From positions 1,813-65,812 of the IMG/VR virus record IMGVR_UViG_3300027751_000015: a stretch of DNA of 64,000 bases; one strand, written 5' to 3'. Of the stretch, positions 1 to 59,277 are shown piece after piece. The notes beneath the pieces were generated by a model, which was not told where the DNA came from, searched no databases, and saw only the letters and a list, made by a program, of their open reading frames with translations. The position numbers and the translations under genes were made by a program. Each line of letters begins with the position of its first letter. The stretch's first letter is position 1. Source of the DNA: a virus.

Positions 1-651
1 TATTCTACTGCTAGCAGCAATGATACTCTACCTAAGTTTCGTATTGTATTTCCTCTTACAGAAAGGCTTGAAGCGGATAGAATTAAACACTTTTGGTTTG
101 CTCTAAACTCAGAGATTAATTCTCTTGGAGATAAACAGACTAAAGACCTATCTCGTATGTATTATGTGCCTGCAGCTTACAATAAAGCTAATAACTTCAT
201 ATTCTCTAATGACGATGGAGTAGATATAGATCCATCAGCGCTTATGGCTAAATGGGAATACAGCGAAAAACAAAATAGTAAAGACTTTTTAGACAGATTA
301 CCAGATGCTTGGAAAGAACAAATTATTGATTACAGAAAATCTAAACTAGATAATACTAGTTATGTGTGGTCAAGCTATAGCGATTGCCCGTTTGTAAATA
401 AAACCCTTCTACGTGAGTATATGAGCATCGCTAACATTGATGGCACTGGAAGATATAGAATGATTTATAAGATGATGATCTCTATTGCTGGAAACGCTAT
501 TGAAAAGCAATATCCTATTACTGCAAGCCAGATAGTTGATCTAGTAAGACAGCTTGATAAAGATACTGCTAATATATACGAAAATAGGCCATTAGATACC
601 GAAGCTAATAATGCGCTTGAATACGCATATAAAAATGGAGTTATACAATAG
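1..651 (+). CDS. Primase-polymerase (AEP)-like protein, 5'-truncated by window edge
   Basis: Frame is open from base 1 (YSTASSNDTLPKFRIVFPL...DKQTKDLSRMYYVP), upstream of the ORF-track Met. The motifs resemble the prim-pol proteins of T4-like phages. Confidence 0.6.
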   Translation, partial: YSTASSNDTLPKFRIVFPLTERLEADRIKHFWFALNSEINSLGDKQTKDLSRMYYVPAAYNKANNFIFSNDDGVDIDPSALMAKWEYSEKQNSKDFLDRLPDAWKEQIIDYRKSKLDNTSYVWSSYSDCPFVNKTLLREYMSIANIDGTGRYRMIYKMMISIAGNAIEKQYPITASQIVDLVRQLDKDTANIYENRPLDTEANNALEYAYKNGVIQ

Positions 652-842
652 TGTTACCAGATGAAATGGAAGCCGAAAAGAACCGCAAGATAATTGTATC
701 ACAGTCAAATACAATCGAGATTCTTCAACAGAACGTGAGAGAGTTACAAGAACAATTGAATGCTGCGCATAAGCGTATTACTCAATTGACTCCTGAAGAA
801 ACTGAATTTATTGTCCGCAATCATAAAGGATTTGAAGGGTGA
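651..842 (+). CDS. Hypothetical coiled-coil protein
   Basis: Stop/start-coupled to both neighbours; heptad-rich. Confidence 0.6.
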   Translation: MLPDEMEAEKNRKIIVSQSNTIEILQQNVRELQEQLNAAHKRITQLTPEETEFIVRNHKGFEG

Positions 843-16848: not shown

Positions 16849-16917
16849 GTATTACGCTTATACCGAGAACGGAAGTGTAATAATTATATCACAGGACAGA
16901 TACATTGTTGAAAGCTA

Positions 16918-16946
16918 TGTACAAAGTATTGGCTATAAAGTAATAT
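16918..16946 (+). promoter_or_regulatory. Promoter TGTACA-N17-TAATAT upstream of tmRNA
   Basis: 17-nt spacer; predicted start just before the acceptor piece. Confidence 0.55.
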
Positions 16947-16957
16947 ATAAGATGTAA

Positions 16958-17168
16958 GCGTTAATAACGGATGTATGGACCTCGGGGCAGTACCGAGCAG
17001 CTCCACCACAAGTACATAAGGTGTATTTCTGATGGGGCTGAACTAGGATCGACATGTATTCAAGTTTACAAACACAAATGCAAACGACAATTTTGCACCA
17101 TCTGGATTTGCCTTAGCGGCATGATCACAGGGGGTTGGCCACTTACCTAGCAACAGAAAAGTGGCAAC
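16958..17168 (+). ncRNA. ssrA: Circularly permuted two-piece tmRNA (alphaproteobacterial type)
   Basis: T-arm CTCGG-GGCAGTA-CCGAG (16981-16997), then CAGCTCC-A-CCA (16998-17008) and a 25-nt intervening segment. GGGGCTG (17034-17040) pairs with it, giving G3:U70, followed by AACTAGGATCGAC. Tag ORF 17080-17124 encodes ANDNFAPSGFALAA*. Outer ends are approximate. Confidence 0.93.
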
Positions 17169-17204
17169 TTTTATAATGTTTAATTTAATCTAGGAAAAAA
17201 GAAA

Positions 17205-20060: not shown

Positions 20061-20468
20061 ATGACTATGCTACGTTATGGTTTATTCTCAGTCTTTATAG
20101 CTATTTTTTTAACATGCGCTTTAAGTGTTAAGGCCCATGAGATGGTTCCAACATACCCAAAATTGGAACCATCTCATATACAAGGGCTATATAAAACAAA
20201 GGTAACAATATTCAATAAAAGACCAGAAGTTGAGTATTATGAAATTGGGGTATTTACAGAAGATTGGGAATCAATACCGTTTGTTTCTACATACAAAATC
20301 TTTCCAGTCCCCTTTTTAAGCACAGTAACAAACGAGCTGTTTATACGTAATATTGATAGAAAAAAAGTAAGGTATATATGCTCTAAATCGAAACTGCGTA
20401 GGTCATATGAAACGCGAACTATAGTGTCTTCTAGGATTTGCTCAAAGATAAAAAGGCTAGGTGAATGA
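20061..20468 (+). CDS. Secreted protein, pilus-chaperone-like
   Basis: Signal peptide (VKA-HE); MVP...TIFN...YEIGVFTEDW pattern reminiscent of PapD-like N-domains. Confidence 0.45.
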   Translation: MTMLRYGLFSVFIAIFLTCALSVKAHEMVPTYPKLEPSHIQGLYKTKVTIFNKRPEVEYYEIGVFTEDWESIPFVSTYKIFPVPFLSTVTNELFIRNIDRKKVRYICSKSKLRRSYETRTIVSSRICSKIKRLGE

Positions 20469-49210: not shown

Positions 49211-49287
49211 GCTCCGATAGCTCAATTGGTTAGAGCGCCCCGCTCATAACGGGTCGGTTGCAGGTTCGAGTCCTGCTGGGAGCACCA
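49211..49287 (+). tRNA. tRNA with CAT anticodon (Ile2 or elongator Met)
   Basis: Cloverleaf with CTCATAA loop, GTTCGAGTCC T-loop and encoded CCA; G:G mismatch in acceptor stem. Confidence 0.85.
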
Positions 49288-49292
49288 TAAAT

Positions 49293-49369
49293 GAATACGT
49301 AGCTCAGCTGGATAGAGCAAGTGCCTTCTAAGCACTAGGTCGAGGGTTCGAATCCTTCCGTGTTCGCCA
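49293..49369 (+). tRNA. tRNA-Arg(TCT)
   Basis: GAATACG/CGTGTTC acceptor, AGTGC-CTTCTAA-GCACT anticodon arm and CCA. Confidence 0.93.
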
Positions 49370-49375
49370 AATAAA

Positions 49376-49452
49376 CTCGGTGTAGCGCAGTCTGGTAGCG
49401 CGCCTGCTTTGGGAGCAGGATGTCAGAGGTTCGAATCCTTTCATCGAGACCA
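49376..49452 (+). tRNA. tRNA-Pro(TGG)
   Basis: CTCGGTG/CATCGAG acceptor, CCTGC-TTTGGGA-GCAGG anticodon arm and CCA. Confidence 0.93.
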
Positions 49453-55232: not shown

Positions 55233-55316
55233 GCCGTTGTTTTTAAACAAAACAAAAACGCATAAAAATGAAATTAAACGTGTACATTGCTTTCTACATG
55301 CTGTAGGATGGTTATA
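55229..55316 (+). repeat. Early-promoter cassette repeat, copy B (TGTACA 55281, TAGGAT 55304)
   Basis: 79/88 identical to 47753-47840. Confidence 0.85.
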
Positions 55317-55339: not shown

Positions 55340-55594
55340 ATGACACCTTCACAAAAAGCTGACCGTTTAGCTCTTATCAAAGAAATCGCTGAGCGCAAGA
55401 AGAAAATGTCTAAGATCCGTAAACGGACTGCATCGGTTATCTCTCGTGCTAAGACTGCTTCACGTAAAGCCAAAGAAATTAAAATTCCTAAGGAGTCTAA
55501 TATCTATCAGTGGACTGATGCTTCTAAATATGCTCAAGAGTATTATGGCGAAACGCTCCACTATACAACGAAATTCGATAACGATTGGGATTAA
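55340..55594 (+). CDS. Basic hypothetical early protein
   Basis: Follows promoter; K/R-rich N-half. Confidence 0.7.
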   Translation: MTPSQKADRLALIKEIAERKKKMSKIRKRTASVISRAKTASRKAKEIKIPKESNIYQWTDASKYAQEYYGETLHYTTKFDNDWD

Positions 55595-55650
55595 TCTTAG
55601 TTGTTATCGAAAAACCCTGTTTGCTTTAAACCCTCGAGGTGCATTACAGG

Positions 55651-55869
55651 TCGGTATAGGCACTGGTACCGAATTAAACCCAGTCGGTTGCTGCATACGT
55701 GAAATGCAGATAAGGGGAGAGCCACTGCAGAAAGGCTCTCCCACGAAAACTTCTTAATACTGCATAGTACGAGCAAAGAAACGTAACAGGTAGGTAGGTG
55801 CTAGCAACCGAACCCGTAAAATCCTGGTGAGGGACTAAGTTAAGACTACTATTCAGTATTAAGAAGTTT
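55651..55869 (+). ncRNA. Candidate structured non-coding RNA / leader
   Basis: Several perfect helices, including a 16-bp stem 55747-55762/55854-55869 and a crossing 9-bp pairing 55684-55692/55803-55811. Confidence 0.5.
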
Positions 55870-55879
55870 GGAGGATGTT

Positions 55880-56089
55880 ATGAGGACTGTACACTATGTA
55901 GGATTTAGAGGCGACGAGTACGTCCGCGCTCATAGGATCTTCGGTGGACCGGTTTATATCCACCGCGATTATGATGATCGTGTGTTTAGTGAAGTTGGCG
56001 ATGATGATGTCGTTATCTTTGGACCAAAGTATAAGAAGCTGCCATATGTGTGGGATGCATCTGCAGTTGATAGGAGATACACAGAATGA
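55880..56089 (+). CDS. Hypothetical protein
   Basis: GGAGG SD 55870-55874, ATG 55880; HYVGFRGDEY..A.RIFG.P. Confidence 0.7.
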   Translation: MRTVHYVGFRGDEYVRAHRIFGGPVYIHRDYDDRVFSEVGDDDVVIFGPKYKKLPYVWDASAVDRRYTE

Positions 56090-57461: not shown

Positions 57462-57490
57462 TGTACATTACTATCACGATGTGGTAGAAT
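57462..57490 (+). promoter_or_regulatory. Promoter TGTACA-N17-TAGAAT
   Basis: 17-nt spacer. Confidence 0.75.
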
Positions 57491-58356: not shown

Positions 58357-59277
58357 ATGTCGTTCGCAGCACTAAAACGTAACCGTACAGATCTCAGCAG
58401 CTTGATTAGTCAGGCCCAAGAGAATAATACCCAACAAAGCACAAAAATGTCAGAGGATCCTCGGTTCTGGACACCTACTCGTGATAAGGCTGGTAATGGT
58501 TATGCTGTAATTCGTTTCCTACCAGGAGACGCAGAAGCCCCAACACCATGGGTTCGGTATTGGGATCACTTCTTCAAAGGCCCAACAGGTCAATGGTACA
58601 TTGAGAAATCTCTTACATCTATTGGTCAACAGGATCCACTATCCGAAAGTAATAGCAAGCTATGGAATGAAGATGGCTCTGACGAAGCCAAACGTACCGT
58701 ACGTGAGCGTAAGCGTAATCTACGTTATATTGCAAACGTACTTGTTATTGCAGATCCTGCAAATCCGGAGAATGAAGGTCAAGTTAAACTTTATCGCTTT
58801 GGTAAGAAAATCTTTGATAAGATTATGGATAGCATGCAACCTCAGTTTCCTGACGAAGCACCAGTCAACCCATTCGATATGTGGGAAGGTGCAGACTTTA
58901 CATTAAAGATTCGTAAGGTTGAAGGTTATCCAAACTATGATGCTTCATCTTTTAAACCATCAACAGAACTATGTGCTGGAGATGATAAAAAGAAAGAAAC
59001 CATCTATGAGAAGCAACACGAAATGACTGAATGGACTGATGCTAAAAACTTTAAATCGTATGACGAACTTAAGTCACGTCTCGCTTTGGTTCTTGGCGAG
59101 TCTTCAATGCCTATGAATGCAAAGGTAATGGAGTCTCTTGATAATAGTATGCCAATCAGTGATTTTAAATCTCATACTCCGCCTAGTGCTCCTAGCGCGC
59201 CACCTCCTTCTGCAGCTGAAGTTGCTGAAAGTGATGATACTTTATCGTATTTCGCTAAGCTTGCAGCAGAAGATTAA
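58357..59277 (+). CDS. 32: Single-stranded DNA-binding protein gp32
   Basis: D.RFW, DKAGNGYAVIRFLP, GQWYIE.SL, GKKIFDKI, NPFD.WEGADF.LKIR, NYD.S.F; acidic LAAED tail. Confidence 0.97.
   Translation: MSFAALKRNRTDLSSLISQAQENNTQQSTKMSEDPRFWTPTRDKAGNGYAVIRFLPGDAEAPTPWVRYWDHFFKGPTGQWYIEKSLTSIGQQDPLSESNSKLWNEDGSDEAKRTVRERKRNLRYIANVLVIADPANPENEGQVKLYRFGKKIFDKIMDSMQPQFPDEAPVNPFDMWEGADFTLKIRKVEGYPNYDASSFKPSTELCAGDDKKKETIYEKQHEMTEWTDAKNFKSYDELKSRLALVLGESSMPMNAKVMESLDNSMPISDFKSHTPPSAPSAPPPSAAEVAESDDTLSYFAKLAAED

What the first reader, a model, noticed from the sequence alone, without database searches (positions are those of the whole stretch)
55651..55875. Highly structured ~220-nt intergenic RNA with a long stem and crossing (pseudoknot) pairing
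Seen: hairpins 55651-55656/55667-55672, 55691-55696/55704-55709 and 55715-55723/55734-55742 (GGGAGAGCC/GGCTCTCCC). A perfect 16-bp stem 55747-55762/55854-55869 is extended by 55764-55769/55847-55852 and ends exactly at the GGAGG SD of the next gene. A 9-bp match TCGGTTGCT (55684-55692) to AGCAACCGA (55803-55811) crosses into the loop of that stem. This is an unusually long gap in a gene-dense genome, and I do not recognise the family. Inference: an undescribed ncRNA, riboswitch-like leader or processing element. A miniature inverted-repeat element is the alternative.
Basis: seen in the sequence. Interest (0 to 1): 0.7.

Follow-up and report, generated by a model that had tools for sequence, protein, structure and literature searches.

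The report
Two new structured phage RNAs
The long gap between two small genes of this marine T4-like phage holds two adjacent non-coding RNA modules: a ~140-base pseudoknotted RNA of an uncatalogued family found in many uncultured marine phages (often among their tRNA genes), and a long-stemmed hairpin module that probably serves as an RNA-cutting site.

Summary
All the hairpins and the long stem are at the stated coordinates. The stretch is not one ~220-nt RNA but two modules.

RNA-1 (55612-55750) belongs to a new family:
- At least 84 copies lie on distinct contigs of uncultured marine T4-like phages, one per contig.
- It matches no Rfam family, no GenBank phage, and no prokaryotic genome (one subgroup's pattern scanned).
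- It has four covarying helices and a real H-type pseudoknot, which a divergent subfamily keeps with entirely different letters.
- Its last hairpin loop always carries a 6-nt palindrome (CUGCAG, CCUAGG or CCGCGG).
- Relatives sit inside same-strand tRNA clusters, or after gene 32 with a terminator. This points to a stable, processed RNA rather than a leader of the next gene.

Module 2 (55747-55869) is a 23-bp AU-rich stalk with a 77-nt insert.
- It is the best inverted repeat in the window.
- Relatives share the stalk base with compensatory and G-U changes, with different inserts or none.
- I infer that it is an RNase III-type processing site ending at the next gene's ribosome-binding site.

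ORF 55446-55757 is not conserved either.

RNA-1's function is unknown. I favour a self-pairing stable RNA, at low confidence. By sequence look-up the scan had not seen this family before, but it noted similar tRNA-island RNAs with self-complementary loops in other phages.

The parts
55281..55309 (+). Promoter-like motif TGTACA-N17-TAGGAT, the probable start of the transcription unit that carries the RNAs
   Evidence: The pattern TGTACA-N17-TAnnnW occurs 16 times in the window against 1.8 expected, 14 of them on the + strand. No sigma-70-type promoter or terminator lies inside the gap on the + strand. Function is inferred.
55340..55594 (+). Upstream 84-aa gene of unknown function
   Evidence: ORF. 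64 tblastn relatives in IMG/VR. No significant Pfam or PHROG family.
55574..55611 (+). Hairpin spanning the stop codon of the 84-aa gene, ending just 5' of RNA-1
   Evidence: Inverted repeat I13, 19-nt arms, 79% complementary. The 3' arm GTTGTTATCGAA is conserved in relatives with the same upstream gene. Not studied further.
55612..55750 (+). RNA-1, a member of a new ~140-nt pseudoknotted RNA family
   Evidence: The covariance model R1 scores the window copy (55608-55756) at 128.9 bits, E = 2.7e-28. There are 81 hits and 56 distinct sequences, one per locus, with more. 93.7% of cells are paired, 16 pairs change on both sides, and 0 of 500 shuffles reach this.
55616..55650 (+). P0, a variable hairpin (base CCTGT 55616-55620 with ACAGG 55646-55650) whose apex holds the palindrome CCTCGAGG at 55632-55639
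   Evidence: Three of five base pairs change on both sides. The longest perfect palindrome in P0 is 6 nt or more in 78% of distinct P0 sequences, usually near the apex, against 38% of shuffles.
55652..55683 (+). H-type pseudoknot. S1 is 55652-55656 with 55667-55671. S2 is 55663-55666 with 55680-55683.
   Evidence: The S2 pair 55664:55682 switches U:A to C:G in 13 of 56 sequences with no exception. The outer S1 pair is C:G in 27 and U:A in 7. The divergent subfamily L027/L024 keeps both helices in the same crossing order with other letters: GUGUG/CACRU and CCUCA/UGAGG.
55685..55709 (+). P2 hairpin (55691-55696 with 55704-55709), plus a possible third crossing pairing of CG 55685-55686 with CG 55698-55699 in its loop
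   Evidence: The P2 pair G:C changes to A:U in 18 of 56 sequences. L250 changes the otherwise invariant outer pair to U:A. The loop pairing is 4 bp and covaries in the CGUU/AACG subgroup, but only 2 bp are present in the window copy.
55714..55743 (+). P3 hairpin (55715-55723 with 55734-55742) with the palindromic loop CTGCAG at 55725-55730
   Evidence: Eight of nine pairs change on both sides and 99.6% of cells are paired. The loop palindrome is CTGCAG in 42 and CCTAGG in 9 of the distinct P0/P3 combinations, and CCGCGG in L027/L024. In many relatives a T-run follows, making it terminator-like.
55747..55869 (+). Module 2, a 23-bp AU-rich stalk (55747-55769 with 55847-55869) around a 77-nt insert (55770-55846). 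The insert has a small hairpin with the loop palindrome GCTAGC at 55800-55805.
   Evidence: Inverted repeat I1. The stalk base AAACU.../...AGUUU is shared by five stalk types with compensatory and T-G changes. An empty stalk occurs in L169 and L204. The insert is found only in near-identical copies.
55870..56089 (+). GGAGG ribosome-binding site (55870-55874) and the downstream 69-aa gene (ATG at 55880)
   Evidence: Sequence. 158 tblastn relatives. No family match.

Best explanation
The gap encodes two consecutive non-coding RNA modules on the + strand. They are probably transcribed with the flanking small genes from the promoter-like site at 55281.

RNA-1 (55612-55750) is a compact, stable RNA of a new family carried by marine T4-like phages.
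- It has a variable hairpin (P0), an H-type pseudoknot, a second hairpin (P2) and a 9-bp terminal hairpin (P3).
- It is one of the phage's stable-RNA genes, like the tRNAs it often sits among.
- It is released from longer transcripts by the tRNA-processing enzymes, by an intrinsic terminator or, in this phage, by cleavage in the neighbouring stalk.
- It acts away from its gene rather than on the next gene.
- Its two end loops are self-complementary, so I propose that copies pair loop to loop into dimers or larger assemblies.

Module 2 (55747-55869) is a double-stranded stalk of RNase III size.
- It separates RNA-1 from the downstream message.
- It leaves the ribosome-binding site free, one base after the stem.

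What is shown: the family, its fold, its strand, its lack of coding capacity, its genomic settings and the palindromic loops.

What is inferred: the processing steps, the stability, the self-pairing and action away from the gene.
For: Family and fold
- R1 finds 81 copies, 56 distinct, one per locus. More are found.
- 93.7% of cells are paired, 16 pairs change on both sides, and 0 of 500 shuffles reach this. Slid controls give 36-48% paired.
- The pseudoknot is kept with different letters in L027 and L024.

Strand
- G-U pairs occur at several positions and are readable only on the + strand.

Non-coding
- 36 of 54 distinct cores have stops in all six frames, and no frame is open in more than 8.

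Not tied to one gene
- 10 of 80 loci with the 69-aa gene carry RNA-1 directly upstream of it.

Stable-RNA setting
- 28 of 81 copies have a same-strand tRNA within 600 nt.
- All 35 loci that hold any tRNA have it on the RNA's strand.
- Some copies lie 13-47 nt after one tRNA, and one abuts the next tRNA.
- Other copies follow gene 32 and end in a hairpin plus T-run at a convergent junction.

Palindromic loops
- Three different hexamers occupy the same P3 loop position.
- The chance per loop is 0.015-0.08.
- P0 apexes are mostly palindromic.

Stalk
- It is the best inverted repeat in 64 kb.
- Five stalk types share the base, with compensatory changes.
- An empty stalk exists, and tandem stalks occur in relatives.

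Transcription hint
- Contigs from RNA libraries cover 55676-55870 without a break and, in relatives, run on into a tRNA.
- 12 metatranscriptome runs hold part of the stretch.

Precedent
- The manA RNA, found in cyanophages among other places, forms kissing-loop cages (preprint 10.64898/2026.07.01.735769).
- T4 has stable RNAs of unknown role in its tRNA region (PMC3014915).
Against: - No RNA ends were mapped. Contigs from RNA libraries cannot exclude carried-over DNA and show neither ends nor strand.
- The window copy has no tRNA within 6 kb, so the tRNA-linked release is argued from relatives.
- RNase III cleavage is inferred only from stem length and composition.
- Self-pairing is inferred only from loop palindromes. 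About ten family members have a P0 loop (AAGUGGC) that is not palindromic at the apex.
- In one subgroup the P0 loop TGTACA, followed 17 nt later by TATACT or TATAGA, also reads as a promoter. If that is real, P0 would be left out of the RNA in that subgroup.
- No partner protein, target or ligand is known.
Confidence: 0.55

Rival explanations
1. A cis-acting leader or riboswitch. RNA-1 senses a ligand or factor, and P3 or the stalk controls transcription read-through or translation of the gene that follows.
For: - The core has many invariant junction nucleotides and a compact pseudoknot, as aptamers do.
- P3 is a terminator-like hairpin in many relatives, while other copies lack the T-run and read through.
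- The stalk ends one base before the ribosome-binding site here and in 8 of 19 distinct stalk variants.
Against: - The downstream neighbour varies: the 69-aa gene, a 113-aa gene, other small ORFs, tRNAs, or no same-strand gene at all at the convergent junction after gene 32.
- Only 10 of 80 loci with the 69-aa gene have RNA-1 directly upstream of it.
- I found no conserved alternative pairing between the core and the 5' strand of P3.
- The ribosome-binding site itself is not sequestered.
Confidence: 0.12
2. A DNA-level element: a recombination or shuffling cassette like the PeSLs of T4-type phages, a miniature inverted-repeat element, or a set of protein-binding palindromes and promoter elements. 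On this reading any RNA is incidental.
For: - The modules sit at gene-cassette boundaries in a variable region.
- The window's RNA-1 is a mosaic. Its core is 55-57 of 61-62 positions identical to one subgroup and its 3' end 40 of 45 to another.
- Stalk modules occur empty, filled or in tandem.
- Many loops are perfect DNA palindromes.
- One subgroup's P0 loop equals the phage's promoter hexamer TGTACA.
- PeSLs are known to mediate such shuffling (PMC2839356, PMC4122927).
Against: - Compensatory changes keep the helices while the sequence changes.
- G-U pairs make sense on the + strand only.
- The crossing pseudoknot, kept with other letters, has no meaning in duplex DNA.
- There is one copy per contig, and no second copy in the window's own 69-kb record.
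- No promoter or terminator consensus lies inside the window copy.
Confidence: 0.12
3. A self-cleaving ribozyme or other self-processing RNA that cuts the polycistronic transcript.
For: - The core is a small, highly conserved pseudoknot.
- It is placed among RNAs that must be cut apart.
- There is a very weak match to the CPEB3 (HDV-like) ribozyme at 55706-55754: 13.6 bits, E = 1.1.
Against: - The match is far below the gathering score of 35.
- By my own reading, no strand complementary to the stretch before P3 exists upstream. The crossing helices also pair in a different order from the HDV fold.
- No Rfam ribozyme class matches.
- Contigs from RNA libraries run unbroken through 55676-55870. 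This is weak evidence, because contigs hide cleavage.
Confidence: 0.06
4. Part of the stretch codes for protein: ORF 55446-55757 (103 aa), or the minus-strand ORFs 55597-55776 and 55604-55744.
For: These frames are open in the window.
Against: - No frame is open in more than 8 of 54 distinct cores, and 36 have stops in all six frames.
- Insertions and deletions between copies are not multiples of three.
- No family matches.
Confidence: 0.02

Closest known systems
Phage T4 stable RNAs rnaC (species 1) and rnaD (species 2) in the tRNA region
   Same: They are small (119-139 nt) non-coding RNAs of a T4-type phage, encoded on the tRNA strand next to tRNA genes, with unknown roles (PMC3014915). Relatives of RNA-1 sit in the same setting.
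   Different: There is no homology: model R1 finds nothing at rnaC or rnaD (best score in the region 8.8 bits, elsewhere). As I read its sequence, rnaC has a tRNA-like T-arm, which RNA-1 lacks. The window copy is not beside tRNAs.
manA RNA motif (Rfam RF01745), and the GOLLD and ROOL RNAs
   Same: They are structured RNAs of phages and prophages with no known function. Recent cryo-EM work shows that they assemble into homo-oligomers through kissing loops (preprint 10.64898/2026.07.01.735769; PMC12286853). RNA-1 carries self-complementary loops in both end hairpins.
   Different: No Rfam model matches RNA-1. RNA-1 is smaller and has a different fold. Its loops are self-complementary, whereas the solved manA pentamer pairs different loops (L5 with L7', L8 with L9'). 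Assembly of RNA-1 has not been tested.
HIV-1 dimerisation initiation site (kissing-loop hairpin)
   Same: From my own knowledge, the site is a 6-nt palindrome shown in a 9-nt loop flanked by unpaired purines. The P3 loop (A-CUGCAG-AAA) and one subgroup's P0 loop (AA-UGUACA-A) have that layout.
   Different: The biology is unrelated and this is a structural analogy only. The calculated 6-bp self-duplexes are -4.8 to -8.2 kcal/mol. Dimer formation was not tested.
RNase III processing stalks (rRNA operon stems, T7 early-mRNA sites)
   Same: From my own knowledge, these are double-stranded stems of about two helical turns, formed by sequences flanking an RNA or lying between cistrons. Their cleavage separates RNAs and can free a downstream ribosome-binding site. 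The window stalk is 23 bp with one mismatch and ends one base before GGAGG.
   Different: Cleavage has not been shown. The host and its RNase III are unknown. The stalk carries a 77-nt insert of unknown role.
PeSLs, the promoter-early stem-loop cassettes of T4-type phages
   Same: They are short conserved stem-loop motifs at cassette boundaries in the variable regions of T4-type genomes, and they are linked to modular shuffling (PMC2839356, PMC4122927). The stalk base is likewise shared by otherwise different modules in front of different genes.
   Different: PeSLs combine a terminator with an early promoter and are multi-copy. The window stalk has no promoter or terminator consensus and occurs once in the window.

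Membership tests
Any Rfam 15 family | A covariance-model match at or above the family's gathering score | tested here: not met
   No family reaches its gathering score in the gap. With E up to 10 on 55500-56000 only chance-level hits appear, the best at 15.6 bits. Relatives give the same result.
T4 rnaC / rnaD | Sequence and structure homology to the T4 RNAs | tested here: not met
   R1 with filters off on T4 68000-75000 gives nothing at 70908-71171.
T4 rnaC / rnaD | Encoded on the tRNA strand within or beside the phage tRNA cluster | tested here: inconclusive
   Met in 28 of 81 relatives. Not met for the window copy, whose nearest tRNA is 6.2 kb upstream.
HDV-like / CPEB3 ribozyme | A nested double pseudoknot (P1, P1.1, P2, P3, P4) and a model score above gathering | tested here: not met
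   13.6 bits against a gathering score of 35. By my own reading of the alignment, no upstream strand is complementary to the stretch before P3, so there is no P1.
Riboswitch or cis-regulatory leader | A consistent position upstream of the same gene or pathway | tested here: not met
   Downstream neighbours differ, and some copies have no same-strand gene downstream.
Riboswitch or cis-regulatory leader | Ligand-dependent alternative structure | not testable with these tools
   This needs in-line probing or reporter assays.
Miniature inverted-repeat element | Many dispersed copies with terminal inverted repeats and target-site duplications | tested here: not met
   There is one copy in the 69-kb record and one per related contig. 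The window holds no other stalk-like long inverted repeat. I saw no direct repeats flanking the stalk, only the shared AAAC and GTTT that pair with each other.
PeSL cassette | A stem-loop terminator joined to a sigma-70-type early promoter, in many copies per genome | tested here: not met
   No promoter or terminator consensus on the + strand in 55595-55880. Single copy.
RNase III processing site | About 20 bp or more of nearly uninterrupted double-stranded RNA | tested here: met
   23 bp with one mismatch. The helix is kept by compensatory and G-U changes across five stalk types.
RNase III processing site | Cleavage by RNase III | not testable with these tools
   This needs an in vitro cleavage assay, or RNA ends compared between rnc mutant and wild-type hosts.
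Kissing-loop self-pairing RNA | A self-complementary sequence exposed in a hairpin loop and kept palindromic when it changes | tested here: met
   The P3 loop holds CUGCAG, CCUAGG or CCGCGG at the same place. P0 apexes are mostly palindromic.
Kissing-loop self-pairing RNA | Dimer or oligomer formation | not testable with these tools
   This needs native gels, size-exclusion or cryo-EM with loop mutants.

The most novel reading that the evidence does not exclude
RNA-1 is a small self-assembling RNA. Its two different self-complementary end loops (P0 and P3) each pair with the same loop of another copy. The phage would then make RNA-only dimers, rings or chains from its stable-RNA gene set. This would be a new, compact natural example of RNA quaternary structure in an abundant group of ocean viruses. 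The neighbouring stalk module would be the cutting site that frees it.
Probability: 0.2. Interest if true: 0.8.

Novelty: new variant of a known kind. Interest (0 to 1): 0.58.

Why it matters
No small RNA of T4 has a functionally characterised role, and the roles of its own tRNA-region RNAs remain unknown (PMC3014915). This work defines a new, well-supported RNA family with a model, a fold and more than 80 copies in uncultured marine T4-like phages. Its clear features make it directly testable: a pseudoknot kept across divergent subfamilies, and end loops that stay palindromic as they change. If the loops mediate self-pairing, it would add a small natural member to the recently discovered self-assembling phage RNAs. 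The stalk module also suggests how these phages insulate messages from neighbouring structured RNAs, and how RNA cassettes are swapped in variable genome regions.

Tried and rejected
- **Rfam.** Gathering and E-value modes on the window and on 20 related loci found nothing except tRNAs and tmRNA.
- **GenBank phages.** blastn of the gap and of three family members against 50,697 phage records gave no match.
- **Prokaryotic genomes.** A pattern for the commonest subgroup gave 0 matches in 185,579 species genomes. The pattern covers one subgroup only.
- **T4 rnaC and rnaD.** They are not homologous.
It is not conserved. A first regular expression for this test matched nothing and was rewritten.
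- **Diverged homologues of the 77-nt insert.** Only near-identical copies were found, so the inside of module 2 has no covariation data.
- **A promoter inside the gap.** None was found.
- **A group I intron reading of the longer inserts in relatives.** The resemblance was recalled from memory, and no Rfam intron model matched.
- **Pairing of the P3 loop with P2 or P0 within one molecule.** Possible partners are not consistent across subgroups (reading).
- **RNA-library contigs.** They are consistent with transcription but prove neither it nor the RNA ends. Parts without cover mean nothing.
- **Earlier findings by sequence.** No look-alike stretch was found.

Full report
**Setting**

The window is part of a 69-kb IMG/VR virus record, estimated about 35% complete.
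- It is a marine T4-like myovirus. It carries a gene 32 homologue (58357-59277) that is at most 52% identical to cultured phages. The nearest are Phage C48C1, the OM43 phage Melnitz and cyanophages.
- It also carries a two-piece tmRNA, three tRNAs and a 2OG-Fe(II) oxygenase.
- The finding lies in the 285-nt gap between an 84-aa gene (55340-55594) and a 69-aa gene (ATG at 55880). Both genes are conserved in many uncultured relatives.

**The observation**

All the listed hairpins and the long stem are present at the stated coordinates.
- The gap folds better than all 200 shuffles on the + strand (z = -2.9).
- The 23-nt arms 55747-55769 and 55847-55869 form the best inverted repeat in the 64-kb window.
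- G+C peaks at 0.48.
- Rfam has nothing, even at E = 10.

**Two modules, not one RNA**

Comparison with 144 related loci splits the stretch in two.
- About 55608-55756 is conserved at roughly 73-94% identity in many loci, including loci where the flanking genes differ.
- The long-stem part is found only in a few close relatives.

**RNA-1, 55612-55750**

I aligned 16 copies (A1) and built a covariance model (R1). A pattern scan of IMG/VR then supplied candidate loci.
- R1 found 81 copies, 56 of them distinct, exactly one per locus. The window copy scores 128.9 bits.
- One search added further copies, including a divergent subfamily.

The fold has these parts:
- P0, 55616-55650, a variable hairpin.
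- An H-type pseudoknot. S1 is 55652-55656 with 55667-55671. S2 is 55663-55666 with 55680-55683.
- P2, 55691-55696 with 55704-55709.
- A possible pairing of the CG before P2 with the CG in the P2 loop. It is four pairs and covaries in one subgroup, but only two pairs are present here.
- P3, 55715-55723 with 55734-55742.

Support for the fold on the 56 distinct sequences:
- 93.7% of cells pair and 16 pairs change on both sides.
- No shuffle out of 500 reaches this, and slid controls pair only 36-48%.
- The S2 pair switches U:A to C:G without exception.
- Eight of nine P3 pairs covary.

The strongest single result concerns the pseudoknot. The divergent subfamily (L027, L024) keeps both crossing helices in the same order with entirely different letters: GUGUG/CACRU and CCUCA/UGAGG.

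The 5' partner is simply a conserved motif of one RNA-1 subgroup, which is present also where module 2 is absent.

**Non-coding and strand-specific**

- 36 of 54 distinct cores have stops in all six frames, and no frame is open in more than 8. ORF 55446-55757 is therefore not a gene.
- G-U pairs occur at several helix positions. These would be A-C mismatches on the other strand.

**Where the family lives**

- No match in 50,697 GenBank phage records.
- No match to the commonest subgroup's pattern in 185,579 prokaryotic species genomes.
- Within uncultured marine phages the setting varies:
  - between the 84-aa gene and various downstream genes;
  - inside same-strand tRNA clusters, in some cases 13-47 nt after one tRNA and about 200 nt before the next, and in one case abutting the next tRNA;
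  - directly after gene 32 at a convergent junction, where P3 is followed by a T-run and looks like a terminator.
- 28 of 81 copies have a same-strand tRNA within 600 nt. All 35 loci with any tRNA have it on the RNA's strand.
- Only 10 of 80 loci with the 69-aa gene have RNA-1 directly upstream of it.
- This argues against a leader of that gene and for a stand-alone stable RNA gene that moves within the variable region.
- The window copy is a mosaic. Its pseudoknot-to-P2 core matches one subgroup (55-57 of 61-62 positions), its 3' end matches another (40 of 45), and its P0 is unique.

**Self-complementary loops**

- The P3 loop always holds a 6-nt palindrome at the same place: CUGCAG, CCUAGG or CCGCGG.
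- A shuffled loop of the same make-up holds one with probability 0.015-0.04, and a random loop of that length with about 0.08. Three independent variants are therefore unlikely by chance.
- P0 apexes are also mostly palindromic, with many different sequences: UGUACA, CGUACG, CUGCAG, CCUCGAGG in the window, and others. A group of about ten copies with the loop AAGUGGC is an exception.
- The layout resembles the HIV-1 dimerisation hairpin, a palindrome flanked by unpaired purines in a 9-11-nt loop. That comparison rests on my own knowledge.
- Small phage-linked RNAs have recently been shown to assemble through kissing loops (manA, preprint 10.64898/2026.07.01.735769; GOLLD and ROOL, PMC12286853).
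- I therefore propose, as an inference, that RNA-1 pairs with itself.
- An unexplained coincidence remains. One subgroup's P0 loop, TGTACA, is also the upstream hexamer of a promoter-like motif that is strongly enriched in this phage (16 sites against 1.8 expected).

**Module 2, 55747-55869**

- The stalk is 23 bp, AU-rich, with one C-U mismatch that is C:G in L009 and L010.
- In relatives, RNA-1 is followed by similar modules with the same base (AAACU.../...AGUUU).
- There are five stalk types. They differ by compensatory and G-U changes.
- The inserts differ too:
  - the window type, 77 nt;
  - three types sharing a GAGGG-hairpin-CCUAAA(A) motif;
  - none at all, so that the module is a bare 40-nt hairpin, in L169 and L204;
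  - two or more modules in tandem in some loci.
- The stalk is often followed at once by GGAG and a start codon of different genes, or by a tRNA.
- A helix of this length between a stable RNA and a message is what RNase III sites look like (my own knowledge). I infer a processing and insulating role. This has not been shown.
- The window-type insert has only near-identical copies, so its internal fold is untested. It contains a small hairpin with the loop palindrome GCUAGC at 55800-55805.

**Transcription**

- No promoter or terminator consensus lies in the gap.
- The promoter-like site at 55281-55309 lies upstream of the 84-aa gene, and the next such site is at 57462.
- Contigs from four metatranscriptome runs cover 55676-55870 without a break. 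In relatives they continue into a tRNA.
- Twelve RNA runs hold 8-44% of the sampled words of the stretch.
- In four of those runs the count of words held on the 750-nt stretch (0.14 of 77) equals the count held on the 261-nt RNA stretch (0.44 of 25). By my arithmetic, all the words they hold lie in the RNA part.
- This is a hint only. Contigs cannot show strand, ends or level, and DNA may be present in RNA libraries.

**Verdict**

- The interpretation 'undescribed ncRNA' is right for RNA-1, and 'processing element' is plausible for module 2.
- The 'riboswitch-like leader', MITE and ORF readings are not supported.
- Function remains open. I favour a processed, stable, self-pairing RNA, with low confidence in the last step.

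**Earlier notes of this scan**

These notes describe other phage tRNA-island RNAs with self-complementary loops in other genomes. I did not test them and they are not independent support. By sequence look-up, this family had not been seen before.

Noticed in passing
window 7802-57490 (16 sites, e.g. 55281-55309, 57462-57490): The promoter-like motif TGTACA-N17-TAnnnW occurs 16 times against 1.8 expected, 14 of them on the + strand. It is often followed by TTGCTT after the first hexamer and has TGTAGRAT at the second. It looks like this phage's main early or middle promoter class.
   Followed up: partly
window 16914-17169: A two-piece (permuted) tmRNA gene, matching Rfam RF04321 and RF01849. 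A related locus (L004 1-540) also has one, 2.1 kb upstream of its RNA-1.
   Followed up: no
window 49211-49452: Three adjacent tRNA genes (Met-CAT, Arg-TCT, Pro-TGG) on the + strand, 6.2 kb upstream of RNA-1.
   Followed up: no
L184 10083-10237; L161 about 380-720 (minus strand); L228/L015 about 560-710: A longer stalk insert of about 110-170 nt in relatives. It has a conserved stretch (...GAGCGGCAACGUCAAUAAGGCCGUGCG...GAGAUACU...) and the GAGGG-hairpin-CCUAAAAG motif. It matches no Rfam family. It is probably another undescribed structured RNA of these phages.
   Followed up: partly
L109 5455-5530; L250/L251/L253 just 5' of RNA-1; L028 5986-6010: A conserved stretch (...GGGGAAAGCCUGACAAU...CGAAUGUACCCAA...) precedes RNA-1 in copies that lie after gene 32 and in some others. 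RNA-1 may be longer at its 5' end there, or this stretch may be a promoter.
   Followed up: no
window 55574-55611: A hairpin with 19-nt arms spans the stop codon of the 84-aa gene and ends right before RNA-1. Its 3' arm is conserved in relatives.
   Followed up: no
window 20137-20177: A perfect 15-bp inverted repeat with an 11-nt spacer. It is the only other perfect long hairpin reported in the window.
   Followed up: no
L004 2908-2978; L016 2906-2976; L250-L253: In several relatives a tRNA follows the stalk module directly. By my reading its anticodon is CCA (Trp). The order there is RNA-1, stalk module, tRNA.
   Followed up: partly
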